DNA of 64,000 bases, from UHGV virus genome UHGV-0057547; one strand, 5' to 3'. Below, piece by piece: positions 13,815-63,124 of this stretch. The translations under genes were made by a program, and so were the position numbers. Source of the stretch: a virus. The notes beneath the pieces were generated by a model. The model was not told the origin of the DNA, ran no database searches, and saw nothing but the letters and a program-made list of their open reading frames with translations. Position 1 is the stretch's first letter; each line of letters begins with the position of its first letter.

Positions 13815-13852
13815 ACTTATATTATACTATTATTCTTGTTAAAAGTAAAGTA
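13815..13852 (-). promoter_or_regulatory. Consensus promoter repeat (TTTACT-N17-TATAAT)
   Basis: -10 at 13821-13826 and -35 at 13844-13849 on the minus strand, spacer 17. Confidence 0.55.
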
Positions 13853-14708: not shown

Positions 14709-15887
14709 TTATTTCAATTCTTTGTGATTTAAGATTATATTTAATATAATTCCAATTATAGCAGATAACGCTAAAGAAGATAATACTACAGTTCCTAATG
14801 TTAATGTAAATCCACCTAGTCCTATAATTAACATGATTATTATAATAATTATATGTTTTATAGATTCATATGATTTGTTATCTTTTAATGACTTCATACC
14901 AACCCAAGCTATCATAAAATAAAGTTGTAAACTAATTGCTCCTACCACAAAACTAGGGATTGATTGTAGTGTTCCACTAAAATAACCACACAAAGATAAG
15001 ATTATAGCTAATATACCTGCCCTTCTAGTTAACTTGCTATCATATTGTTTTGTTAAAGCTAATACCGAAGTTGATTCTCCATAAGTAGTATTTCCTACAC
15101 TTCCAAATAATCCTCCTAAAGCAGTAGCTAAACCATCTCCAATTAATGTTTTATGCAAACCAGGGTTTTCTATGAAATTTTTATTAGTAACAACGCTTAA
15201 TGTAGTTATATCTCCTATATGTTCCAAGCAAGTTACTAATGCGACAGGGGCAATAATCATAATTGCCGTTAAATCAAATTTAGGTAATACTATACTAGGT
15301 AACATTATACTTTGTGATTGTGTTACAATAGAAAAATCAACTAAACCACATGAAATAGATATTACATATCCAACTAATAATGCTATCATTATTCCTAATT
15401 GTTTTAATAATCTTTTTCCAAATAATAGAATTAATAATGATATACTTAAAGATATTATAGCTATCAATACATTTCCTTGTATATTTGTTATAGCACTAGG
15501 AACTAAAGATAATCCAATTATTATTATCATTGTCCCTGTTATATGAGGTGGCAATATTTTATTAATTTTGTTTACCCCTATCTTATAGATTAATAGTGCA
15601 AATACAATATATATTAATCCTACTATTATAAATCCACCACAACTATATTCATAACCATATTGTGAGACAATCATGGACATAGGAGTTATAAAAGCAAAAC
15701 TAGAGCCTAAGAATGCCGGTACTTTATTTTTTGTAATAAAACCAAATAACAAAGTACCAACGCCAGCAGTGAATAACGCAGTAGATGGAGGAAATCCAAC
15801 CAATAATGGCACGAGCGTAGTTGCTCCTACACAAGCCAATAATATTTGTAAGCTTAATAACCATTCTTTTATATTTTGTTTTTTCAT
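14709..15887 (-). CDS. uraA: Uracil permease (NCS2 family, UraA/PyrP-like)
   Basis: 12-14 TM. Strong resemblance to UraA blocks (GATxLVPxL...GxGTLLFxxITKxKxPAxLGSSFAFIxP and TTYGEsxxVxAxT). Confidence 0.8.
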   Translation of the reverse strand: MKKQNIKEWLLSLQILLACVGATTLVPLLVGFPPSTALFTAGVGTLLFGFITKNKVPAFLGSSFAFITPMSMIVSQYGYEYSCGGFIIVGLIYIVFALLIYKIGVNKINKILPPHITGTMIIIIGLSLVPSAITNIQGNVLIAIISLSISLLILLFGKRLLKQLGIMIALLVGYVISISCGLVDFSIVTQSQSIMLPSIVLPKFDLTAIMIIAPVALVTCLEHIGDITTLSVVTNKNFIENPGLHKTLIGDGLATALGGLFGSVGNTTYGESTSVLALTKQYDSKLTRRAGILAIILSLCGYFSGTLQSIPSFVVGAISLQLYFMIAWVGMKSLKDNKSYESIKHIIIIIIMLIIGLGGFTLTLGTVVLSSLALSAIIGIILNIILNHKELK

Positions 15888-24927: not shown

Positions 24928-24984
24928 ATTATCTCTCCTTTTCAAATCTAATATAACCACTATATATTGTAGCATATAAAAAAT

Positions 24985-25122
24985 AAGACACTATATATTG
25001 TATTTTATAACCCCTAACCGTGAACTACCAACAAGCTAAAACTTATTTGCTTCTTAGGTAAAGTTACTATTGCAACTAATTTACTAAGCTCAAAAGGTCG
25101 TTCCAACCTCTATTTTTTTTAT
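24985..25122 (-). ncRNA. Putative omega-RNA (reRNA) / right end of the IS605-family element
   Basis: Locally GC-rich, structure-prone 130-nt segment directly 3' of the tnpB stop, the position where TnpB guide RNAs are encoded. Confidence 0.5.
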
Positions 25123-26223
25123 TTATTTATTTAATATTCTTAGTCCTTCATATAATATATTAATACTAGCGTTAATATCTCTATCATGATGTTTGCCACA
25201 ATATGGACAATCAAATTCTCTTATAGATAATTCTTTTTTACCAGTATTATTTCCACAATTACTACATATTTGACTAGAAGGATAATATTTGTCTATGATA
25301 ACGACAGTTCTACCATACCAATTAGCCTTATATTCTAATTGTCTTCTAAATTCATACCATGATACTTCGCTTATTGCTTTGGCTAACTTATGATTTTGTA
25401 AAAGATTTTTTACTTGTAAATCTTCTAAACATATTACTTGGTTTTCGTTTATAAGTTCAGAAGATAATTTATGTAAAAAATCTTTTCTTTGATTAGTTAT
25501 TTTTTCATAAGCTTTAGCTAAGTCAACTCTAGCCTTATTTTTATTCTTACTTCCTTTTTTCTTCCTAGATAAATCTCTTTGTAGTTTTTTTATTTTATTT
25601 TCTTGTTTTCTTAGCCATTTAGGATTAGAATATTTAACTCCATCACTAATTATAGCAAAATCAGTTAATCCTAAATCTATACCAACCGCAAATTCATTTT
25701 TAGGCAATTCTTTTATCTCTTGTTCTACTAATATAGATATATAATATTTACCACTAGGATTTTTAGATATCGTCGCCGATTTAATCTTTCCATCTTTAGG
25801 AATTTGTCTATGTTGTTTAATTCTAACTAGAGTTTTCAATTTAGGTAATTTAATATGTTTATCATCAACTATTCTAAGGATTTGTGTTTTTTGATTATTA
25901 TTTGTAGTATAACTATAATAATTATTTTTTTTAGATTTAAATTTAGGAAAACCTACATTTCTATCTCTAAAAAAATTTTTATATGCTTTATCTAAATCCA
26001 TTTGTGTATTTGCTAATGCTTGACTATCCACTTCTTTTAACCATGGAAATTCTTTTTTGTATTGAGCAGGTCTATTATACAACATTTTATTGTTCTTTTT
26101 ATAATATTCAATTTTATCATTTAACATTTTATTATAAATAAATCTTACACTACCAAAGCATTTAGAAAAATATATTTCTTGTTCTTTATTTGGATATAAT
26201 CTAAATTTATATGCTTTTAACAT
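25123..26223 (-). CDS. tnpB: TnpB (IS200/IS605-family OrfB, RuvC-like RNA-guided nuclease)
   Basis: 366 aa. RuvC-I ([11 protein letters not shown]), RuvC-II Glu region, C-terminal zinc finger CSNCG...CPYCG, then Ruv[15 protein letters not shown]. No tnpA nearby. Confidence 0.85.
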
Positions 26224-30617: not shown

Positions 30618-31898
30618 TTAACTTATCCTTTTATATCTTTTATTATGATTCCAATTTATATATTTCCATACTAATTTAGTCCCATCTTTTAACTTACCAC
30701 AATAATTTCTTTTACCTTGACAACATGAACATAAATTTTTAATATTAATATTATAATATGCAGAACCTTCATTTAAAGTATAAAAAATTCTATTTGTTGT
30801 TATACATATAACACTTCTTGATTTAGAATTATTTTTTCCACTATTTCTAATACCTTTTTCTTTTCTTGATTTTTCTACACTATAATCACATTTACCTATA
30901 ATATATCCATGCTTTAAATATTTTGCAACTGTTTGACGACATATATTTAATATATTACCTATTTCAACCGTATTATGTATTCCACTATTCCATAATTTCC
31001 AAGCCTTTATACATAAACTATTTTGACTTTCTTCCCATGCTAATTTCCAATCAATATTGCTTAAGTCAAAACATGGTGACAACTCTTTTATGATATTTTC
31101 TTTTAACCATTCTAATTCACTATATCTACAATCAATTACTATATAATTATTAATATGATTTTTAGCACATTTATATTTAAATAAATCATTCATTTGTTCT
31201 TGTTTTAAAGGTTTCCAATAATTTGCTTTATTTTCTATATAATGTTGTTCTCCATGAGTTTCTATTATCATGTTATGTCTAGGTAAATAAAAATCATATT
31301 CAAAATATCCACACCATTTAAAATTTGATTTATTTAATTGATATATAAAATCTTCATCTAATTGTTTTAATACATTTGACATAAACTTTTCAGTTATAGG
31401 TAAACCATCAGAACAAAATTCACATGAATATCTTCTTTTTACTACATTATCTAATATTTTTTTATTTTTTGATATATTACCACAATCTAAACATTTAAAA
31501 TAATATTTTTTATGACTTTTACAAGATATATTATAACAATCATCAAAAATTAAATCATTCTCAGTTATAGCAATCATTTTAGCTACATTTGGATAATTAT
31601 ATGCTAAACTATCTTTATAATGAACTTTATGATTTCCACAATATCCACATTTTCTATTATTATAAAAATTACTACAACTTATTTCGTACCCAATTTTATT
31701 GCCTTCTCTATCATAATTATGGTAATCATTTTCTAAACAATATAGCCAAACTTTTTTATTTGATTGTTTTCTGATTTCATAAGGATGAATATCTAACTCA
31801 TTATTCTTCTCCCAATTCCATATGTCATTTAAATTTAATCCTAATTCAACTTCTATATGATAAGCAAACGAATTATCATATTTTATTTTCTTATTCAT
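30618..31898 (-). CDS. Homing-endonuclease-like protein: Zn-ribbons + PD-(D/E)XK (DUF559-like) nuclease domain + shared C-terminal DNA-binding module
   Basis: Multiple CxxC pairs. YDFYLPRHNMIIETHGEQHY nuclease motif. C-terminal CSCCQGKRNYCGKLKDGTKLVWKYI. Paralog of 52646..54067. Confidence 0.5.
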   Translation of the reverse strand: MNKKIKYDNSFAYHIEVELGLNLNDIWNWEKNNELDIHPYEIRKQSNKKVWLYCLENDYHNYDREGNKIGYEISCSNFYNNRKCGYCGNHKVHYKDSLAYNYPNVAKMIAITENDLIFDDCYNISCKSHKKYYFKCLDCGNISKNKKILDNVVKRRYSCEFCSDGLPITEKFMSNVLKQLDEDFIYQLNKSNFKWCGYFEYDFYLPRHNMIIETHGEQHYIENKANYWKPLKQEQMNDLFKYKCAKNHINNYIVIDCRYSELEWLKENIIKELSPCFDLSNIDWKLAWEESQNSLCIKAWKLWNSGIHNTVEIGNILNICRQTVAKYLKHGYIIGKCDYSVEKSRKEKGIRNSGKNNSKSRSVICITTNRIFYTLNEGSAYYNINIKNLCSCCQGKRNYCGKLKDGTKLVWKYINWNHNKRYKRIS

Positions 31899-49481: not shown

Positions 49482-49585
49482 AATAATTCCTCCTTATTAA
49501 CAATAATATGAAAATACTAAACTATCATTTTCCGTTTCAATATTTATTCTTAAATTTCCCTATTCAACGTGTTCTTTTTCACTTT

Positions 49586-49650
49586 ATATAAGCTACTCAA
49601 GTTTTTATAACACTCCAAGGGCGTAAATTCGGATTTGAACATCCCTACAT
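49586..49650 (-). promoter_or_regulatory. Conserved structured 5'-leader element, copy A
   Basis: Core ACTCAAGTTT.TAT.A.ACTCC.AGGGCGTAAATTCGGA..TGAAC shared with 63010..63075. Lies between the promoter and the gene start. Confidence 0.45.
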
Positions 49651-49682
49651 ATCTATTGCTTTGTTTTTTTATTTCTTATTTA

Positions 49683-49716
49683 CTTATATTATACTATTAC
49701 TCTTATAGGATTTTTA
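49683..49716 (-). promoter_or_regulatory. Promoter repeat with degenerate -35
   Basis: TATAAT at 49688-49693 (minus); -35 region replaced (AAATCC). Confidence 0.35.
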
Positions 49717-51594: not shown

Positions 51595-52686
51595 CTATTT
51601 ATTATAATTTTTATATTCTTTAATTAGCTTCTTTGTATAATTAAATAAACTATTCGAATCTTTTCTTTGTATTTCAACATCATACCATTCCATAGGTGTT
51701 CTTGAATAAAAATCCCCAAACCCTCCTGGTGCAACATGACCATTATGTACTCCCATACCTATTTCAGTACCATAATATATGCATATATCATTATTTTTAA
51801 AAGAGAACATTATTTCTAAAGCTTGTTTTATTTTATTAATATCATGATTAAAACTTACAGATATTCTCGTTTGGTCGTGATTGTCTAAAAATATAACAGA
51901 CCTTTCTTCATTATTGTCAATAACTAAATGTTGTTTATTTATAACTGTGTTTTTAACCCATCCAGCTTCCTGGAAGTTAAATGTCTTCATACCTGTTTCT
52001 TTTGCATACATATCACTTATTTCAAAACTATCCCATGCTTCTCCTACAATATATGCGTTAGGTTTTATTGAATAAACCATATTACAGAACCATTTCCAAA
52101 ATTCAATCTTATCACCACTTGCAAAAATAATAGCATCAAGTCTAAAACCATCTACCTTATGTTCTAATAACCAAAATCTAATTACACTTTCAATCATTTC
52201 TCTAACTTTTTCAGATTGATTATTAAGTTGTGGCATTTGCTCTGACCAAGGGGCTAGATACCATTTTTTATTACTATAGCAGTATTTCCATTGGTTATTT
52301 ATTTGAACATCAGACCAAAAGTAGCAGTCATTTTTTCCTTCTATACTCTCTTGAAATAATTTATGATGATATCCGGTATGACATAAAACTAAATCTAATA
52401 ATACTTCTAAACCATTTTCATGTGCCTTTTTAATAAAATTATCAAAATCTTCTAAAGTCCCATATTGTTCTCTAATTTTAAAATATGAATCTACAGAATA
52501 CCCATGTTCATTATCAGATGGATGAATAGGAGTTAACCATAAAGTTGTAACTCCCAATTCTACAAAATAAGGTATTTTTTCAGTTAAATCTTTAAAATCT
52601 CTACAAAATGATGGAAAATATATTTCATATATCACTCTTCTTTTTTTATTCATTTTTTTCTTCACACTCCTTGATATAATCTTCAT
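51595..52686 (-). CDS. Glycoside hydrolase family 13 (alpha-amylase superfamily catalytic domain)
   Basis: GH13 signature regions DLVLCH, GFRLDAI (nucleophile Asp), GEAW (acid/base Glu), FLDNHD. Confidence 0.7.
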   Translation of the reverse strand: MKIISRSVKKKMNKKRRVIYEIYFPSFCRDFKDLTEKIPYFVELGVTTLWLTPIHPSDNEHGYSVDSYFKIREQYGTLEDFDNFIKKAHENGLEVLLDLVLCHTGYHHKLFQESIEGKNDCYFWSDVQINNQWKYCYSNKKWYLAPWSEQMPQLNNQSEKVREMIESVIRFWLLEHKVDGFRLDAIIFASGDKIEFWKWFCNMVYSIKPNAYIVGEAWDSFEISDMYAKETGMKTFNFQEAGWVKNTVINKQHLVIDNNEERSVIFLDNHDQTRISVSFNHDINKIKQALEIMFSFKNNDICIYYGTEIGMGVHNGHVAPGGFGDFYSRTPMEWYDVEIQRKDSNSLFNYTKKLIKEYKNYNK

Positions 52687-54067
52687 AATACATCCATTTT
52701 AATTTTGTTCCATCTTTTAATTTACCAGCATGTTCTCTTTCACCATTACAACAACTAGAAATATTACTTTTTCCCATATTGAAATATTCTTCAGCTTCGC
52801 ATATAGAATCAAATTTTTTATCTATTGTTATACAATATACTTCTCGTGAACCATAATGATTACGACCTCTATTTTTATTATATCCTATCCTTTTACTTTC
52901 TTCTATTGTATAATCACATTTATCACATTCCACTCCTCTTTTTAGGAATTTTACAACAAGACTTCTATTTATTTTTAACATATCTCCTATTTTAACAACA
53001 TCATGTATTCCACTATTCCATAATTCCCAAGATTTAACACATAAGCTATTTTGACTTTCTTCCCATGCTAATTCCCAATCAATATTAGATAAATCAAAAC
53101 AATCACTAAGTTCTTTTATGATGTTTTCTTTTAACCAATTAAGTTCACTATATCTACAATCAATTGTAATATAATTATCAATATGATTTTTAGCACATTT
53201 ATATTTAAATAAGTCGTTCATTTTTGTTTCGTCTAATTTTCCCCAATTTCCTCCTGGTTGAACATAATGTTGTCCTCCATGTGTTTCTATTATCATATTT
53301 AAGCTAGGAATATAAAAATCATATTCATAATTATTACACCAAGTAAAATTTGTTTTTGATAAATGTAATATATAATCAATTTTCAATTGACTTAATATGT
53401 TTAGCATAAATTTTTCAGGTATGTTTATTCTATCTCCACATATATAACATGAATAACCTCTTTTTACTATATTAGACAAAAGTTTTTTATCTCGTGATAT
53501 TGCGTTACAATCTAAACATTTGAAATAAAACTTTCTATTACTATAACACGATATTTTATAACAATCTTCAAAAGTTAAGTTGTTTTTAGGTATCGCAATC
53601 ATCTTAGCTATTTTGGGATAGTTATAAGCTAAGGAATCCTTTGGATGAAGTTTATTTTGTTTTCTACAATAGCTACATCTATTTCCTTCATAAAAATGTG
53701 AGCAAGTAACACTGTATCCACCATAATCATTATGATAATCACATTTAAGACAATATAACCATATTTTCCTATTACTCCTTTTAGTAATCTGATAAGGATT
53801 AATTCCATTTTTATTATTTTTATCCCAATTCCAAATATCATTTATGTTTAATTTTAATTCTTTTTCTATATAATATCCTATAGTTTCTTCATATCTAATT
53901 GGATGTTTTACTGACCCATCTTTAAAATCTCTATAACTTCTATGCTTAATGATAACTCCATCTTCAAATTGAATACTTATATCTTGATTATTTATGTATT
54001 CTATTATAGTTATTTTCTCACCTTTTTTATTATAGTTGCTTTCTCCTACTCTATTTATTAAAGGCAT
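52646..54067 (-). CDS. Homing-endonuclease-like protein (Zn-ribbons + PD-(D/E)XK DUF559-like + C-terminal module), paralog of 30618..31898
   Basis: YDFYIPSLNMIIETHGGQHY. C-terminal ISSCCNGEREHAGKLKDGTKLKWMYY. Confidence 0.5.
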   Translation of the reverse strand: MPLINRVGESNYNKKGEKITIIEYINNQDISIQFEDGVIIKHRSYRDFKDGSVKHPIRYEETIGYYIEKELKLNINDIWNWDKNNKNGINPYQITKRSNRKIWLYCLKCDYHNDYGGYSVTCSHFYEGNRCSYCRKQNKLHPKDSLAYNYPKIAKMIAIPKNNLTFEDCYKISCYSNRKFYFKCLDCNAISRDKKLLSNIVKRGYSCYICGDRINIPEKFMLNILSQLKIDYILHLSKTNFTWCNNYEYDFYIPSLNMIIETHGGQHYVQPGGNWGKLDETKMNDLFKYKCAKNHIDNYITIDCRYSELNWLKENIIKELSDCFDLSNIDWELAWEESQNSLCVKSWELWNSGIHDVVKIGDMLKINRSLVVKFLKRGVECDKCDYTIEESKRIGYNKNRGRNHYGSREVYCITIDKKFDSICEAEEYFNMGKSNISSCCNGEREHAGKLKDGTKLKWMYYEDYIKECEEKNE

Positions 54068-55390: not shown

Positions 55391-56068
55391 TTAATATTTT
55401 ATAGCATTTTGCTTATTCATAAAGAAGTGTATTCCAGTTGAACATTCATTCCATCTATTCTCATCAAAATTATCTACTTTTACTATCTCTCCAACTTTAT
55501 ATATAAAATTAATATCATAGTCACTAGGGGTACTTTCTATTTTTTCACCAGTATCAATCTTTTCTATATCTAATACTTTAGCTTTATCACATCTACATTT
55601 AAGAGTTGTAGCACTATTTCTTTTGCTATCCTCCATTATTAGTAATTTAACAATATACTTTCCAACTTTCTTATACCCTATAAAACTACCTTCTTCAGGA
55701 CAAGCTAAATTATATCCTATAGTATACATATTTGTTTTAACATTATTTAAATTTGCATTATTTAAATTAGAGCTATATAAATTAGCATTATATAAACTAG
55801 CACCACTTAAATTAGCATTATATAAACTAGCACCACTTAAATTAGCACTATTTAAATTAGCACCACTTAAATCAACACCTCTTAAATTAGCACATCTTAA
55901 ATCGGCACTATTTAAATCGGCACTATTTAAATTAGCACATCTTAAATCAATATTATATAAATTAGCATATCTTAAATCAGCACCTCTTAAATTAGCACAT
56001 TCTCCACCTTCACCATTTAACCATAATTTATGATTTTTTAATATTTCATTTAATTTATTTATTTCCAT
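55391..56068 (-). CDS. Pentapeptide-repeat protein with C-terminal globular domain
   Basis: About 20 tandem A(N/D)LxxA(D/N)L pentapeptides (LRGADLRYANLYNIDLRCANLNSADL...) over residues 20-110. Confidence 0.7.
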   Translation of the reverse strand: MEINKLNEILKNHKLWLNGEGGECANLRGADLRYANLYNIDLRCANLNSADLNSADLRCANLRGVDLSGANLNSANLSGASLYNANLSGASLYNANLYSSNLNNANLNNVKTNMYTIGYNLACPEEGSFIGYKKVGKYIVKLLIMEDSKRNSATTLKCRCDKAKVLDIEKIDTGEKIESTPSDYDINFIYKVGEIVKVDNFDENRWNECSTGIHFFMNKQNAIKY

Positions 56069-56988: not shown

Positions 56989-58605
56989 TTATTTATTACT
57001 TTCATAAAAAACTTTATATAATTTATATGTCTCATATAAATCACGCTTACTAATTGTTTCCATAGGGCTATGCATGGATGCCGTAGGCACACCAGCATCC
57101 ATTGTTTCCATTCCTCTTATTCCAAAGAACATAGCAACTGTTCCTCCACCAGTTTCACTAACTTTAGTTGTATCAACTTGATATTTTACATTATTATCAA
57201 CACATAAACCTTTAATATATTCTCTCATCTCTATACTTGCATCATTTCCTCGTTTTAATCCAGTAAATGGTACTAATGCAACACCATTACCACATACTGC
57301 TTTGGCACTATCTTCAAAGTGACTACTATAATTACTATCAAATCCACCAGTTACATCTGCACTAATTACCTTTGTATTTCTCATAAACTCTCTAGTCAAT
57401 AATGTATGTCCATTTGCTAAAATAAGAAATATATCATCTATAAATTGAGTTTCAGCACCACTCATTTGTCCACTTCCAGTTTCTTCATAAGCAGTGAATA
57501 AAGCTATCTTTGTTCTTTTATTAGGCTTGCTAGTTAATATAGCTTCTAATTCAGCATAAGCACAACTTTTATCATCATGTCCATAACCTAATAATAAATC
57601 TTTATCTAATCCCATTTCTAAAGTTCTAAAATAAGGTACAAAACTTAAATCAGCTAATTCAAAATTCTCTTTTGTTATTCCATATTCTTTTTCTAGCATT
57701 TCAAATAATTCTTCTTTATTTCCATTACTCATTCTTACTAATAATTTATCATAAGACAAGTCTTTCACTTCTTTTCTACCTCTTAAATGAGGCAATAAAC
57801 TAGTTATAGAAAATAAATATCCTTTTTCTCCAGTATTTATATATTTGATTTCATCATCTACTTTTATTTTTCCAACCATTACAAAAGGTCTATCCAACCA
57901 TAATTGTGGTATTATTCCTCCATATGGTTGTGTTTTTATAAATGTTCCATCATCATTAGATACAAATGGTTCACCTACTATAACATCTAATCTAGGACTA
58001 TCAATATGACTTACTATTAAATTAGCACCTTCTGATATATCTTCACCTACTTCTACTAAAGCTATCAATTTATCTCTAAATTCAAATATTAATTTATCTC
58101 CTACATTAAAGTGTTTATAATTATAAGTTTTATATCCCACATCTTCTGCTTTATCTTTTATATATTTTAATACTTGTGTTTCATGTAAGCCTTCTTCTAA
58201 TAAATATTTATATTCATCTATAAAATTATCCTCTTCATTATTATCTTGTGCCTTATATAATTCTTCTAATAAAACATCTAATACATCTCTATCTTTTTCT
58301 TCATCAATTATTTCTTTTAAGGTATCATATTTTATATCAGGAAGCCATTTTGAATACATAACATTATCTCTAAATATTATTTTTATTCTTGATTTTTTAG
58401 CTATAATAGATTTTGTGTTTAATTCATAAATCTTTTTCCATTGAGTTGGCAATTCTCTTCCATTCGACCAATAATAACCCAATTCTTCTAATGATATTAA
58501 TACTTGCTCAATAACTTCTTTATCATCATTAACTTCTATTATAACTTGTTTATCATTTTTTTTACTTAATTCCTCTATTAAACTTGTTATCCTTCTTATA
58601 CTCAT
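56989..58605 (-). CDS. Two-domain protein with C-terminal M42/M18-type aminopeptidase-like domain
   Basis: C-terminal half has metallopeptidase-like blocks (GHDDKSCAYAELEA, TAYEETGSG, SMHSPMETISKRD); 538 aa. Confidence 0.45.
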   Translation of the reverse strand: MSIRRITSLIEELSKKNDKQVIIEVNDDKEVIEQVLISLEELGYYWSNGRELPTQWKKIYELNTKSIIAKKSRIKIIFRDNVMYSKWLPDIKYDTLKEIIDEEKDRDVLDVLLEELYKAQDNNEEDNFIDEYKYLLEEGLHETQVLKYIKDKAEDVGYKTYNYKHFNVGDKLIFEFRDKLIALVEVGEDISEGANLIVSHIDSPRLDVIVGEPFVSNDDGTFIKTQPYGGIIPQLWLDRPFVMVGKIKVDDEIKYINTGEKGYLFSITSLLPHLRGRKEVKDLSYDKLLVRMSNGNKEELFEMLEKEYGITKENFELADLSFVPYFRTLEMGLDKDLLLGYGHDDKSCAYAELEAILTSKPNKRTKIALFTAYEETGSGQMSGAETQFIDDIFLILANGHTLLTREFMRNTKVISADVTGGFDSNYSSHFEDSAKAVCGNGVALVPFTGLKRGNDASIEMREYIKGLCVDNNVKYQVDTTKVSETGGGTVAMFFGIRGMETMDAGVPTASMHSPMETISKRDLYETYKLYKVFYESNK

Positions 58606-62592: not shown

Positions 62593-62766
62593 CTATTTAT
62601 CATATATTTTAAAATCATCTGATACTACTTGAAAATACTTACCATCTAGTTTCATAGAACTATTATTTAGCATTTTACAAAGTTCATTTGCATATTCTTC
62701 ATCTACTCCCATACAAAATAATTCATCAGGTTTCATTTTATACAAGTCTCTAACTAAAATTTTCAT
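62593..62766 (-). CDS. Micro-ORF (57 aa), overlapped ATGA with the upstream ORF
   Basis: Product MKILVRDLYKMKPDELFCMGVDEEYANELCKMLNNSSMKLDGKYFQVVSDDFKIYDK. Confidence 0.35.
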   Translation of the reverse strand: MKILVRDLYKMKPDELFCMGVDEEYANELCKMLNNSSMKLDGKYFQVVSDDFKIYDK

Positions 62767-62942
62767 TTTCCATCAACCCCTAATTCTTTTAAAATTTTAT
62801 TTTCTAATTCATTAGTTGTCATTTCTAGTATCCCATTTATCAAGTGACCGAACATTCTAGTTTTTTCTAATTCTATTATTTCTACTGAAACATCATTACC
62901 TTTTCTAATAAATATTACTTTACAATCTTTTTCAGCTATCAC
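62763..62942 (-). CDS. Small ORF (about 59 aa, GTG start)
   Basis: Product (M)IAEKDCKVIFIRKGNDVSVEIIELEKTRMFGHLINGILEMTTNELENKILKELGVDGK. Lies downstream of leader copy B. Confidence 0.25.
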   Translation of the reverse strand: MIAEKDCKVIFIRKGNDVSVEIIELEKTRMFGHLINGILEMTTNELENKILKELGVDGK

Positions 62943-63009
62943 ACAATAACGTTTCAGTGCTTGTTACAATTTCAGAACAAGCTTCCCTATTCATCGTATC
63001 CTCTTTCCT

Positions 63010-63075
63010 TTTTACAAAGTACTCAAGTTTGTATGATACTCCCAGGGCGTAAATTCGGAACTGAACTTTCCTATT
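63010..63075 (-). promoter_or_regulatory. Conserved structured 5'-leader element, copy B
   Basis: Same core as 49586..49650; the hairpin stem differs by compensatory changes (UACAAA/UUUGUA vs UUAUAA/UUAUAA). Confidence 0.45.
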
Positions 63076-63088
63076 TATTTCTTATTTA

Positions 63089-63124
63089 CTTATATTATAC
63101 TACTACTCTTATTAAAAGTCAATA
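63089..63124 (-). promoter_or_regulatory. Consensus promoter repeat
   Basis: -10 at 63094-63099, -35 at 63117-63122. Confidence 0.6.

What the first reader, a model, noticed from the sequence alone, without database searches (positions are those of the whole stretch)
49586..49650. Conserved ~50-nt leader element with a covarying hairpin, present twice between promoter and start codon
Two intergenic leaders share the core (+ strand) ACTCAAGTTT-TAT-A-ACTCC-AGGGCGTAAATTCGGA--TGAAC. The second copy is at 63010-63075. On the transcribed strand the element forms a hairpin whose loop AACUUGAGUA is conserved. The stem differs by compensatory changes, UUAUAA/UUAUAA in one copy and UACAAA/UUUGUA in the other. 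The hairpin is preceded by an invariant ~30-nt stretch GUUCA..UCCGAAUUUACGCCCU.GGAGU. Covariation argues for a functional RNA structure. It could be a regulatory leader, a protein-binding site such as a translational operator, a processing site, or a small-RNA remnant. Both copies sit downstream of promoter copies and upstream of small regulatory-looking ORFs.
Basis: seen in the sequence. Interest (0 to 1): 0.55.

Follow-up and report, generated by a model that had tools for sequence, protein, structure and literature searches.

The report
Solo TnpB guide-RNA genes in phage
The repeated "leader" is a known structured RNA, RAGATH-18, which is the scaffold of the guide RNA of IS607-type TnpB nucleases; here it occurs as stand-alone copies behind phage promoters that most likely supply extra guides to the phage's own TnpB.

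Summary
Both copies are real, but each element is larger than described: 49534-49648 and 62951-63073, minus strand. It is also not a new motif. Both are full-length matches to Rfam RAGATH-18 (RF03064; 69 and 63 bits, threshold 45). RAGATH-18 is the scaffold of the guide RNA (reRNA/omegaRNA) of IS607-type TnpB nucleases.

The Rfam fold, extended by a 5' hairpin, a 3' hairpin and a loop-tail pseudoknot, is conserved: 95% paired with 13 covarying pairs.

The context is unusual. Neither copy has a tnpB next to it. Each follows a resident phage promoter and replaces the 5' UTR or 5' end of the next gene.

The same 204-kb gut phage encodes one cognate TnpB with intact catalytic motifs, 9.8 kb beyond the window, and at least one further solo copy. 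Relatives carry 4-8 copies per 21 kb.

The about 20 nt after each scaffold differ between copies. In relatives that lack the element, the matching sequence is preceded by TTR at 13 of 15 junctions (P about 3e-14). That is a guide/TAM relationship.

Best reading: these are dispersed solo guide-RNA genes that serve the phage TnpB in trans for homing or competition between phages. The family is known; this is a new variant.

The parts
49668..49693 (-). Copy 1: promoter remnant. It has the -10 box TATAAT (49688-49693) and the conserved initial transcribed sequence ATAAGTAAATAAGAAATAAA. There is no recognisable -35 box.
   Evidence: Exact 26-mer shared with copy 2. Alignment of the 7 promoter copies. 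The consensus scan finds no -35/-10 pair here.
49631..49645 (-). Copy 1: 5' stem-loop GGGAU-GUUCAA-AUCC. Loop bases UUCAA (49635-49639) form the 5' strand of the pseudoknot.
   Evidence: Helix 1 and helix 2. Corresponds to the 5' flanking stem-loop of canonical reRNAs (PMC11061315).
49556..49621 (-). Copy 1: RAGATH-18 core, comprising helices P1-P4, the k-turn (GGAG / UGAA) and an internal loop.
   Evidence: Rfam RF03064: 69.4 bits, E 8e-12, model positions 1-71 of 71.
49534..49555 (-). Copy 1: 3' hairpin AUUUA-agaa-UAAAU, then AUUGAAAC. UUGAA (49536-49540) is the 3' strand of the pseudoknot, and the scaffold ends here.
   Evidence: Helices 7 and 2. The nhmmer envelope is 49648-49534.
49514..49533 (-). 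Copy 1: candidate guide GGAAAAUGAUAGUUUAGUAU. These are the first 20 nt after the scaffold.
   Evidence: Assigned by position, by analogy with the canonical reRNA. Sequences diverge between copies exactly here. No target was found in the data held.
63094..63122 (-). Copy 2: promoter TTGACT-17 nt-TATAAT.
   Evidence: 11 of 12 consensus matches. Member of the 7-copy promoter family. The same promoter is present in alleles that lack the element.
63057..63071 (-). Copy 2: 5' stem-loop GGAA-AGUUCAG-UUCC. Loop bases UUCAG (63061-63065) form the 5' strand of the pseudoknot.
   Evidence: The A/G at the last loop position covaries with U/C before UGAAAC.
62983..63047 (-). Copy 2: RAGATH-18 core.
   Evidence: Rfam RF03064: 62.9 bits, E 4e-10, model positions 1-71 of 71.
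62951..62982 (-). Copy 2: long 3' hairpin GCUUGUU-cugaaauugu-AACAAGC, then ACUGAAAC. CUGAA (62953-62957) is the 3' strand of the pseudoknot.
62931..62950 (-). Copy 2: candidate guide GUUAUUGUGUGAUAGCUGAA. In relatives that lack the element, the homologous DNA lies inside an intact gene of about 105-110 aa and is preceded by ...GATTG (a TTG motif).
   Evidence: (L023, L041, L215, L223) and L238. The window's guide differs from these targets at 2 of 20 positions. The guide of the occupied allele in L237 matches L238 exactly.
62763..62942 (-). Truncated ORF of 59 aa with a GTG start. It is the 3' remainder of the gene whose 5' UTR and first 46 or so codons were replaced by copy 2.
   Evidence: Comparison with the intact gene behind the same promoter in L023, L041, L215 and L223, and with the 110-aa gene in L238.

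Best explanation
Each element is a compact but complete scaffold of the guide RNA (reRNA/omegaRNA) of an IS607-type TnpB nuclease. Its parts, in order, are:
- a 5' stem-loop;
- the RAGATH-18 core, which includes a k-turn;
- a short 3' hairpin;
- a tail whose bases YUGAA pair with the 5' loop (a pseudoknot).
About 20 nt of copy-specific sequence follow the scaffold and would act as the guide.

The copies are not attached to a tnpB gene. Each is transcribed from an ordinary phage promoter. The phage's single cognate TnpB gene lies 9.8 kb beyond the window. It has its own phage promoter, conserved RuvC motifs and no tnpA. This TnpB would load these RNAs in trans.

Each guide equals the DNA that follows its own scaffold. 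The complex would therefore cut related, co-infecting phage genomes that lack the element at that locus, where the same sequence sits next to a TTR motif. Recombinational repair from the element-bearing genome would then copy the cassette across. The result is a homing or gene-drive system that also acts as a weapon between phages.

Shown: the identity of the RNA, its fold, its orphan and promoter-driven arrangement, the cognate TnpB in the same genome, the presence/absence polymorphism, and the TTR rule.

Inferred: loading in trans, cleavage, and homing.
For: Identity.
- Rfam RAGATH-18 matches above the gathering score, both full length.
- RAGATH-18 is the core of the IS607 TnpB reRNA, as shown by RNA-seq of bound RNA, cleavage assays and cryo-EM (PMC11061315).

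Fold under selection.
- Across 28 distinct copies, 94.6% of cells pair, against 33-51% when partners are slid.
- 13 pairs show changes on both sides.
- The covariation score is 0.324, against 0.189 in shuffles (0 of 500 reach it).
- RNAalifold finds the same helices independently.
- The loop-tail pair is A-U in 15 copies, G-C in 9, G-U in 1 and mismatched in 3.
- Canonical elements use CGUUG/CAACG at the same place. This matches the PK2 pseudoknot of the cryo-EM structure.

Same family as TnpB-linked copies.
- The 19-mer GAATTTACGCCCTKGGAGT is found about 41-43 nt after tnpB-like ORFs in 51 of 125 hits in genomes and metagenomes.

Cognate nuclease in the same genome.
- The window is 100.000% identical over 12.7 kb to the 204,438-bp contig ERZ1310023 NODE_1.
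- A contig of identical length from JGI sample 3300045988 (one search lists NODE_1's source as ENA+JGI) carries a 393-aa TnpB at record positions about 73.9-75.1 kb.
- That TnpB has a phage promoter upstream and a phage-type reRNA downstream, whose core is identical to window copy 1.
- Its closest solved structure is the RAGATH-18 partner ISFba1 TnpB (8iaz, E 3e-70), ahead of ISDra2 TnpB (2e-41). The D/E/D motifs are conserved.
- The gene is syntenic in more than 12 relatives.

Many solo copies.
- There are 4-8 copies per 21 kb, all on the same strand.

Guide/TAM relationship.
- The sequence after ...YUGAAAC is found without the element in relatives, and is preceded there by TTR at 13 of 15 curated junctions. 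The background frequency of TTR is 6.5%, giving P = 3e-14.
- In an enlarged set the count is 21 of 25.
- At 13 of 21 junctions the first 20 nt match an element-free allele exactly.

Presence/absence among near-identical phages.
- L237 is the empty allele for copy 1 and L238 for copy 2.
Against: - There are no expression, binding or cleavage data.
- Some copies in relatives have a terminator hairpin immediately after the scaffold, which leaves no sensible guide (L019:12083, L206, L314:6702).
- The element replaces 20-300 nt of sequence rather than being cleanly inserted. No transposase or left end is present. How new scaffold/flank junctions arise is therefore unexplained.
- Copy 1 is a transplanted block. 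Its guide has no target in the data held.
- The window's copy-2 guide differs at 2 of 20 positions from the known empty alleles, and ISFba1 TnpB is reported to be mismatch-sensitive.
- Characterised IS607-type TnpBs use G-rich TAMs (AGGAG, GAGGG, TGGG). A TTR TAM is therefore an inference that runs against precedent. It is supported only by the junction statistics and by substitutions at the aligned TAM-contact residues.
- Mismatches between guides and empty alleles are not concentrated in the guide (13, 9 and 11 per successive 20-nt block, P = 0.29). There is thus no arms-race signature.
Confidence: 0.6

Rival explanations
1. Cis-acting leader. The structured RNA in the 5' UTR controls the downstream genes. 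It might do so through stability, processing, attenuation or translation, possibly when TnpB or a k-turn-binding protein binds it.
For: - Every copy lies between a promoter and the first gene of a unit.
- Both window copies lack a terminator before the next ORF, so they are co-transcribed with it.
- TnpB is known to process its own transcript (title and abstract of PMC10278001, listed).
- The RAGATH-18 k-turn binds L7Ae in vitro (PMC8191799).
Against: - The downstream genes are unrelated to one another: a sigma-like factor, YopX-type fragments and unknown small ORFs.
- Several of these genes are truncated by the element itself.
- Some copies are followed at once by a terminator and a new promoter.
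- This model does not explain the TTR rule at the junctions.
Confidence: 0.13
2. Inert relics. The copies are right-end fragments of IS607-type insertions whose tnpB was deleted. They persist and are shuffled by recombination between promoter repeats, and have no function.
For: - 36% of RAGATH-18 hits in a large survey are not next to a TnpB.
- Fragments of scaffold 3' ends lie downstream of several copies.
- Copy 1 looks like a block moved by recombination.
Against: - Compensatory changes maintain six helices and a pseudoknot across 28 distinct copies, with modules reshuffled between copies.
- All copies keep precisely the parts of the reRNA reported as required. The part they lack is the 5'-most segment, which is reported as dispensable.
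- All copies are in the sense orientation, directly behind promoters.
- The junctions follow the TTR rule.
Confidence: 0.12
3. Decoy or sponge. The solo scaffolds titrate a TnpB. The target could be the phage's own TnpB (to limit self-damage), one from a host IS607, or one from a competing phage. This would resemble phage RNA anti-CRISPRs built from solitary repeats.
For: - The scaffold is complete.
- The 'guide' is sometimes only a terminator.
- Many copies are driven by strong consensus promoters.
- IS607 TnpB/RAGATH-18 elements are abundant in Firmicutes of the human gut.
Against: - The phage keeps its own TnpB with conserved catalytic motifs, under the same promoter type.
- A decoy does not need its flank to be TAM-adjacent in other genomes.
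- The phage scaffold has diverged from host-type scaffolds at the pseudoknot and 3' flank. This argues for pairing with the phage's own TnpB rather than a host enzyme.
Confidence: 0.1

Closest known systems
RAGATH-18 RNA (Rfam RF03064), the reRNA scaffold of IS607-family TnpB (e.g. ISFba1; Ren et al., Cell Res 2024, PMC11061315)
   Same: - Full-length covariance-model match.
- Same k-turn and helices.
- Same 5' flanking stem-loop and linker GAAUUUACG.
- Same loop-tail pseudoknot (PK2).
- Variable guide immediately 3' of the scaffold.
- The cognate nuclease is most similar to ISFba1 TnpB.
   Different: - Not adjacent to tnpB; transcribed from its own phage promoter.
- The first, dispensable hairpin of the 5' flank is missing.
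- The 3' flank is 22-33 nt (one hairpin) instead of about 64 nt (two stem-loops).
- The scaffold ends ...GAAAC, not ...ACGG.
- The inferred TAM is TTR instead of AGGAG/GAGGG.
- No tnpA and no left end.
PATE-like, protein-less IS200/IS605 elements that encode omegaRNAs used in trans (Meers et al. 2023, PMC10055086)
   Same: A guide RNA without its nuclease gene, presumed to be served in trans by a TnpB encoded elsewhere in the same genome. It behaves as a non-autonomous partner of a homing system.
   Different: - PATEs have transposon ends and are mobilised by TnpA in bacterial chromosomes.
- Here there are no recognisable ends and no transposase.
- The RNA sits behind resident phage promoters.
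- It belongs to the IS607/RAGATH-18 scaffold type and lies in a virulent-looking 204-kb phage.
TldR (nuclease-dead TnpB) plus guide RNA in prophages (Wiegand et al., PMC10705468)
   Same: A TnpB-family protein and guide RNA kept by a phage without a transposase, and used for a purpose other than transposon maintenance.
   Different: - TldR has lost its RuvC residues, represses host genes, and has a single adjacent guide.
- Here the D/E/D motifs are conserved.
- The guides are many and dispersed, and they match phage alleles rather than host promoters.
Free-standing homing endonucleases of phages and marker exclusion (e.g. PMC10055350), and mobile promoter-stem-loop cassettes of T4-type phages (the latter recalled from memory)
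   Same: Presence/absence polymorphism at gene boundaries among co-circulating phages. Predicted cutting of the allele that lacks the element, followed by gene conversion. Cassettes are bounded by repeated promoters.
   Different: Specificity would come from a short RNA encoded at the site, with one shared nuclease gene elsewhere. A homing endonuclease, by contrast, is a protein encoded at each site.

Membership tests
RAGATH-18 (Rfam RF03064) | Score at or above the curated gathering threshold of the covariance model, over the full model | tested here: met
   69.4 and 62.9 bits against a threshold of 44.9; model positions 1-71 of 71; E 8e-12 and 4e-10.
RAGATH-18 (Rfam RF03064) | Consensus helices P1-P4 supported by covariation | tested here: met
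   Helices 3-6 are 85-100% paired. 8 of the 11 pairs in P2-P4 show changes on both sides. RNAalifold reproduces the helices.
RAGATH-18 (Rfam RF03064) | K-turn between P1 and P2: tandem G.A/A.G pairs, with C:G closing the C helix | tested here: met
   GGAG (A2 columns 33-36) and UGAA (columns 83-86) are invariant in 28 copies. The motif is as crystallised in PMC8191799. The 4b:4n position is U.U or U.G here, where the consensus has G.U.
IS607 TnpB reRNA (functional guide RNA) | Located immediately 3' of an IS607-type tnpB ORF | tested here: not met
   The upstream genes are an NT5C-like nucleotidase and a DNA ligase. The only TnpB in the window (25123-26223) is ISDra2-like and has no RAGATH-18 beside it.
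IS607 TnpB reRNA (functional guide RNA) | A cognate IS607-type TnpB with intact RuvC motifs is encoded in the same genome | tested here: met
   A 393-aa TnpB lies on the 204,438-bp source contig, 9.8 kb beyond the window. It is followed by a reRNA with the same core as copy 1. Its best solved-structure match is 8iaz, and the D/E/D motifs are conserved.
IS607 TnpB reRNA (functional guide RNA) | 5' flanking stem-loop whose apical loop pairs with the last bases of the 3' flank (PK2) | tested here: met
   UUCAR pairs with YUGAA. Four pairs are invariant. The fifth is A-U in 15 copies, G-C in 9, G-U in 1 and mismatched in 3. Canonical copies use CGUUG/CAACG (structure described).
IS607 TnpB reRNA (functional guide RNA) | 3' flank of about 64 nt with two stem-loops, and PK1 to the RAGATH-18 core | tested here: not met
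   The 3' flank is 22-33 nt with a single hairpin. PK1 could not be located. The reRNA adjacent to the phage TnpB has the same short flank, so the short flank is a property of this subfamily rather than a truncation.
IS607 TnpB reRNA (functional guide RNA) | Variable guide directly after the scaffold, whose target in element-free DNA is flanked 5' by a fixed motif (TAM) | tested here: met
   Flanks diverge exactly after YUGAAAC. TTR precedes the homologous sequence at 13 of 15 junctions, P = 3e-14, and at 21 of 25 in the enlarged set.
IS607 TnpB reRNA (functional guide RNA) | G-rich TAM (AGGAG, GAGGG or TGGG) and a scaffold ending in GG | tested here: not met
   The scaffold ends in AAC and the inferred motif is TTR. 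In the alignment, the ISFba1 TAM-contact residues K80, K83, Y117, N121 and N122 align with M, V, A, H and Y (my reading; the alignment is uncertain in this region).
IS607 TnpB reRNA (functional guide RNA) | RNA is bound by TnpB and directs DNA cleavage | not testable with these tools
   Needs RIP-seq and cleavage or interference assays.
IS607 transposon | Serine-recombinase tnpA, left and right ends, GG crossover dinucleotide | tested here: not met
   There is no tnpA or left end near the phage tnpB, which sits behind a phage promoter. The junction dinucleotides are not GG.

The most novel reading that the evidence does not exclude
A large gut phage has domesticated an IS607-type TnpB, together with a dispersed set of independently transcribed solo guide-RNA genes. 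There are at least 4 in this genome and 4-8 per 21 kb in relatives. The system uses a TA-rich TAM (TTR). It would work as a multi-guide gene drive or interference system among co-infecting phages. New guides would arise when deletions or rearrangements bring the scaffold next to TAM-flanked sequence. This would be a route from a one-guide transposon nuclease to a multi-guide system that does not involve CRISPR arrays.
Probability: 0.4. Interest if true: 0.8.

Novelty: new variant of a known kind. Interest (0 to 1): 0.6.

Why it matters
RAGATH-18 and its role as the TnpB guide scaffold are already known, so the motif itself is not new. What is not described in the papers I could search is the arrangement found here.
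- A phage keeps one nuclease gene and many separate, promoter-driven guide genes.
- The junctions obey a TAM-like rule.
- Alleles with and without the element co-circulate.

If this is confirmed, it would have four consequences.
- It would explain part of the roughly one-third of RAGATH-18 RNAs that have no adjacent TnpB.
- It would show RNA-guided homing operating between viruses.
- It would add a TA-rich TAM to a compact nuclease family now used for genome editing.
- It would provide a natural intermediate between single-guide transposon nucleases and multi-guide systems.

All four points can be tested directly with the sequences given here.

Tried and rejected
- **tRNA-like T-arm.** GUUCAAAUCC looked like one, but the flanking bases cannot form the T stem, and the stretch is the loop of the 5' hairpin.
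- **Small ORF.** An ATG-started 20-codon ORF overlaps the 3' part of copy 2. The ATG is absent from most copies (CGUUGAA), so it is not conserved.
- **The window's own TnpB (25123-26223) as partner.** It is ISDra2-like (8bf8, E 1e-83), and no RAGATH-18 match lies beside it. Rejected as the cognate nuclease.
- **Known phages.** Megablast of the locus against 50,697 phage records gave no match. Only distant protein similarity to large C. difficile phages was found.
Tested in both registers and not supported.
- **Self-targets.** The two window guides have no second match in the window or in the loci held, with up to 2 mismatches in 16 nt. The origin of copy 1's flank was not found.
- **Orphan-bearing phages without TnpB.** I first thought some lacked a cognate TnpB, because the search for related loci did not list their contigs. 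The cluster look-up showed this was a false negative: P0154 lies on the 197,570-bp contig and P0135 on the 204,438-bp contig.
- **Escape signature.** Mismatches between guides and empty alleles are not enriched in the first 20 nt (13, 9 and 11; P = 0.29).
- **Family-wide pseudoknot test.** A simple complement search gave 41 of 57 elements with a match, against about 14 for scrambled loops. My regular expression missed most phage-type copies, so this is only rough support.
- **Two apparent 'junctions'.** They are only a 4-nt AAAC duplication at the scaffold end in L327. Three others are repeated terminators. The curated count of 13 of 15 is the safer figure.

Full report
**What is in the sequence**

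All genes in this part of the window run on the minus strand. On that strand the two intergenic regions have the same order of parts.
- A copy of a repeated phage promoter comes first.
- A conserved element of about 115-125 nt follows.
- Sequence that differs between the two copies comes next, and then the next ORF.

The similarity is far beyond chance. A 16-mer from the element occurs exactly twice, where 0.09 matches are expected. A 26-mer of the promoter and leader occurs seven times with at most 3 mismatches, where none is expected.

**Identity**

A scan of the whole window against Rfam at curated thresholds returns only two hits. Both are full-length matches to RAGATH-18 (RF03064):
- 49556-49621, minus strand, 69.4 bits;
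- 62983-63047, minus strand, 62.9 bits.

The gathering score is 44.9. RAGATH-18 was an orphan motif until 2024. It was then shown to be the central module of the guide RNA ('reRNA') of IS607-family TnpB nucleases.

The canonical RNA is built as follows. It starts 13 nt after tnpB, with a 5' flank of about 37-50 nt. The 73-nt RAGATH-18 core follows, then a 3' flank of about 64 nt, and then the guide. The TAM is AGGAG or GAGGG. [quoted passage not shown] The motif contains a crystallographically verified k-turn (PMC8191799).

I collected phage-type copies from viral contigs, metagenomes and look-ups by protein, and aligned 28 distinct sequences as alignment A2.

Only about 61% of cells pair, no pair shows a compensatory change, and it does no better than the shuffled controls.

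The Rfam helices, extended by a 5' stem-loop, a 3' hairpin and a loop-tail pseudoknot, do much better:
- 94.6% of cells pair, against 33-51% when partners are slid by 1-3 columns;
- 13 pairs have changes on both sides;
- the covariation score is 0.324, against 0.189 in shuffles (0 of 500 reach it).

RNAalifold recovers the same nested helices without guidance.

The real covariation between the two window copies is in P2 (GUGUU/AACAC against GUAUC/GAUAC), P4 and the 3' hairpin.

The pseudoknot pairs UUCAR with YUGAA. It has four invariant pairs. The fifth is A-U in 15 copies, G-C in 9, G-U in 1 and mismatched in 3.

**Relation to canonical, TnpB-linked copies**

The 19-mer GAATTTACGCCCTKGGAGT spans the linker and the start of the core. 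It also occurs in many Firmicutes genomes. In 51 of 125 matches, a TnpB-like ORF ends about 41-43 nt upstream.

Those canonical copies have the same 5' stem-loop position, but with loop CGUUG. They end ...GGCAACGG, so CGUUG can pair with CAACG. The phage copies have changed both strands, to UUCAR and YUGAA. The pseudoknot is thus kept by compensatory change.

Phage copies differ from canonical ones in three further ways.
- They lack the first hairpin of the 5' flank, which was reported dispensable for cleavage.
- Their 3' flank is one short hairpin.
- They end ...GAAAC.

**Where the nuclease is**

Neither window copy has a tnpB next to it. The upstream genes are an NT5C-like nucleotidase and an ATP-dependent DNA ligase.

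The window does contain a TnpB at 25123-26223. It is ISDra2/IS605-like (8bf8, E 1e-83), and no RAGATH-18 match lies beside it. It is a different system.

The cognate enzyme lies just outside the window.
- The window is 100.000% identical over 12.7 kb to ERZ1310023 NODE_1, a 204,438-bp contig. Window coordinate equals record coordinate minus 85.
- A contig of identical length from JGI sample 3300045988 (Ga0495776_060529) carries a 393-aa TnpB at about record 73.9-75.1 kb. I treat it as the same contig, because one search lists NODE_1's source as ENA+JGI.
- That is 9.8 kb beyond the window end, on the same strand.
- It is preceded by a copy of the phage promoter.
- It is followed 46 nt later by a phage-type reRNA whose core is identical to window copy 1.

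A homologue 95% identical to this protein matches the RAGATH-18 partner ISFba1 TnpB best (8iaz, E 3e-70), ahead of ISDra2 TnpB (2e-41). The RuvC D/E/D motifs and the zinc-finger cysteines are conserved in that homologue and can be read in P0135 itself. The gene is syntenic in more than a dozen ~180-208-kb relatives. No tnpA and no left end accompanies it.

These genomes carry 4-8 elements per 21 kb around tnpB, all in the same orientation. The window's own genome has a third solo copy 5.3 kb beyond the window end, at L236:2859-2970.

**The elements are polymorphic and replace sequence**

*Copy 2.* Relatives L023, L041, L215, L223 and L238 have the same promoter at the same place after the ligase gene. 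In them it drives an intact gene of about 105-110 aa. In the window, the scaffold replaces that gene's leader and first 46 or so codons, which leaves the 59-aa ORF at 62763-62942.

*Copy 1.* L237 has only a 21-nt spacer between the nucleotidase gene and the next gene. The window has a block of about 210 nt there, made of a -10-only promoter, the scaffold, and about 60 nt of flank of unknown origin.

**A guide/TAM relationship**

The sequence immediately after ...YUGAAAC differs from copy to copy. For many copies, the same sequence is found in related phages without the element.

At 13 of 15 curated independent junctions, that sequence is preceded by TTA or TTG. The other two have TTC and TCA. 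The background frequency of TTR is 6.5%, which gives P = 3e-14. With more loci the count is 21 of 25, though a few of those are artefacts or repeated terminators. At 13 of 21 junctions, the first 20 nt match an element-free allele exactly.

This is the relationship expected between a TnpB guide, its target and a TAM. The motif is TA-rich, however, whereas characterised IS607-type enzymes use G-rich TAMs. In the alignment, the TAM-contact residues of ISFba1 are all replaced in the phage enzyme (the alignment is uncertain in this region).

**Mechanism proposed**

The solo elements are guide-RNA genes transcribed from phage promoters. The phage TnpB loads them in trans. Each directs cleavage of the allele that lacks the element in a co-infecting relative, and repair then copies the cassette across.

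The RNA identity, fold, arrangement, cognate nuclease, polymorphism and TTR rule are shown. Loading, cleavage and homing are inferred.

**What does not fit**

- Some copies in relatives have a terminator right after the scaffold.
- The left side of each element is always a resident promoter, and sequence is lost at the site. The events are therefore not simple insertions.
- Tandem remnants of scaffold 3' ends lie downstream of several copies.

How new junctions form is unresolved. One idea is that random deletions occur downstream of a scaffold, and only those that land beside a TAM create a driving guide. This would explain the replacements, the TTR rule and the absence of a transposase, but it is untested.

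**Rivals**

- A cis-regulatory leader fits the position, but not the copies with no gene downstream, nor the TAM rule.
- Inert relics do not fit the compensatory changes.
- A decoy fits the guide-less copies, but not the phage's own TnpB with conserved catalytic motifs, nor the TAM rule.

**Novelty**

The motif and its biochemical role are known. Protein-less omegaRNA elements that act in trans have been noted for IS605 (PATEs), and 36% of RAGATH-18 hits are known to lack a neighbouring TnpB.

I found no description of promoter-driven solo RAGATH-18 guide genes in phages, or of a TA-rich TAM for this clade. A paper on Staphylococcus Silviavirus phages merely lists RAGATH-18 hits. I therefore rate it a new variant of a known kind.

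Noticed in passing
window 24976-26223 (-): Intact IS605/ISDra2-like TnpB of 366 aa, with HTH, OrfB_IS605 and TNB domains. A 147-nt non-coding stretch follows its 3' end and may encode its omegaRNA. It is unrelated to the RAGATH-18 system. Relatives carry copies at other sites (L202:5457-6553 at about window 54.4k; L239, L240, L326), so it is an active or recently active insertion.
   Followed up: partly
L006:11002-11206 (equivalent to window ~59,570): A mini-element of about 205 nt, made of the 3' omegaRNA region and a piece of the coding region of the IS605-like tnpB. It is inserted in a near-identical phage but absent from the window. It resembles a PATE-like deletion derivative.
   Followed up: no
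window, minus strand; TATAAT ending at 13826, 30563, 34586, 41463, 49693, 59482, 63099: Seven copies of a highly conserved promoter-leader cassette: TTGACTTTTAATAAGAnTAnTAGTATAATATAAGTAAATAAGATAAATAAAAGGAG-N7-ATG. Conservation extends about 30 nt past the -10 box. The two RAGATH-18 copies start where the Shine-Dalgarno sequence would be.
   Followed up: partly
L320:11330-11480; L316:7691-7730; L218 near 13,590: Downstream of several elements there are tandem repeats of the last 11-23 nt of the scaffold (...AACAAGCACUGAAAC), separated by 4-45 nt of unique sequence. This gives a small repeat-spacer-like pattern of unknown origin.
   Followed up: partly
L243-L249 (viral contigs with TnpB 73-80% identical): In this sub-lineage the RAGATH-18 element lies 400-850 nt upstream of tnpB rather than downstream, and no match was found after the gene. 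Its 3' end reads ...AUUGCACUUG instead of ...AUUGAAAC.
   Followed up: no
window 30618-31898 and 52646-54067 (-): Two paralogous ORFs (about 72% nucleotide identity) with DUF4379 zinc-finger and I-HmuI/NUMOD-like domains. They are likely free-standing homing endonucleases.
   Followed up: no
window 14709-15887, 51595-52686, 56989-58605, 55391-56068 (-): Host-like auxiliary genes: a xanthine/uracil permease, an alpha-amylase-family enzyme, an M18/M42 aminopeptidase and a pentapeptide-repeat protein. The pentapeptide-repeat gene varies in length and copy number among relatives.
   Followed up: no
L236:500-7750 (0.5-7.8 kb beyond the window end): Three sigma-70-like genes and three tyrosine-recombinase/MrpR-like genes lie in the same early-looking region. 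One solo RAGATH-18 copy lies directly upstream of a sigma-region-4 gene.
   Followed up: no
L117-L186 (bacterial genomes): Canonical IS607 reRNA copies end ...GGCAACGG. The ATG of the next gene often follows 5-8 nt later. These elements therefore sit between a Shine-Dalgarno sequence (which equals the AGGAG TAM) and the start codon.
   Followed up: no
whole window: Host and identity hints. Related loci average 24% G+C. The helicase is 36% identical to those of large Clostridioides difficile phages (LIBA2945, phiCD211). TnpB relatives are annotated in Intestinibacter sp. MAGs. The source contig is 204,438 bp, and near-identical genomes occur in many human-gut assemblies.
   Followed up: partly
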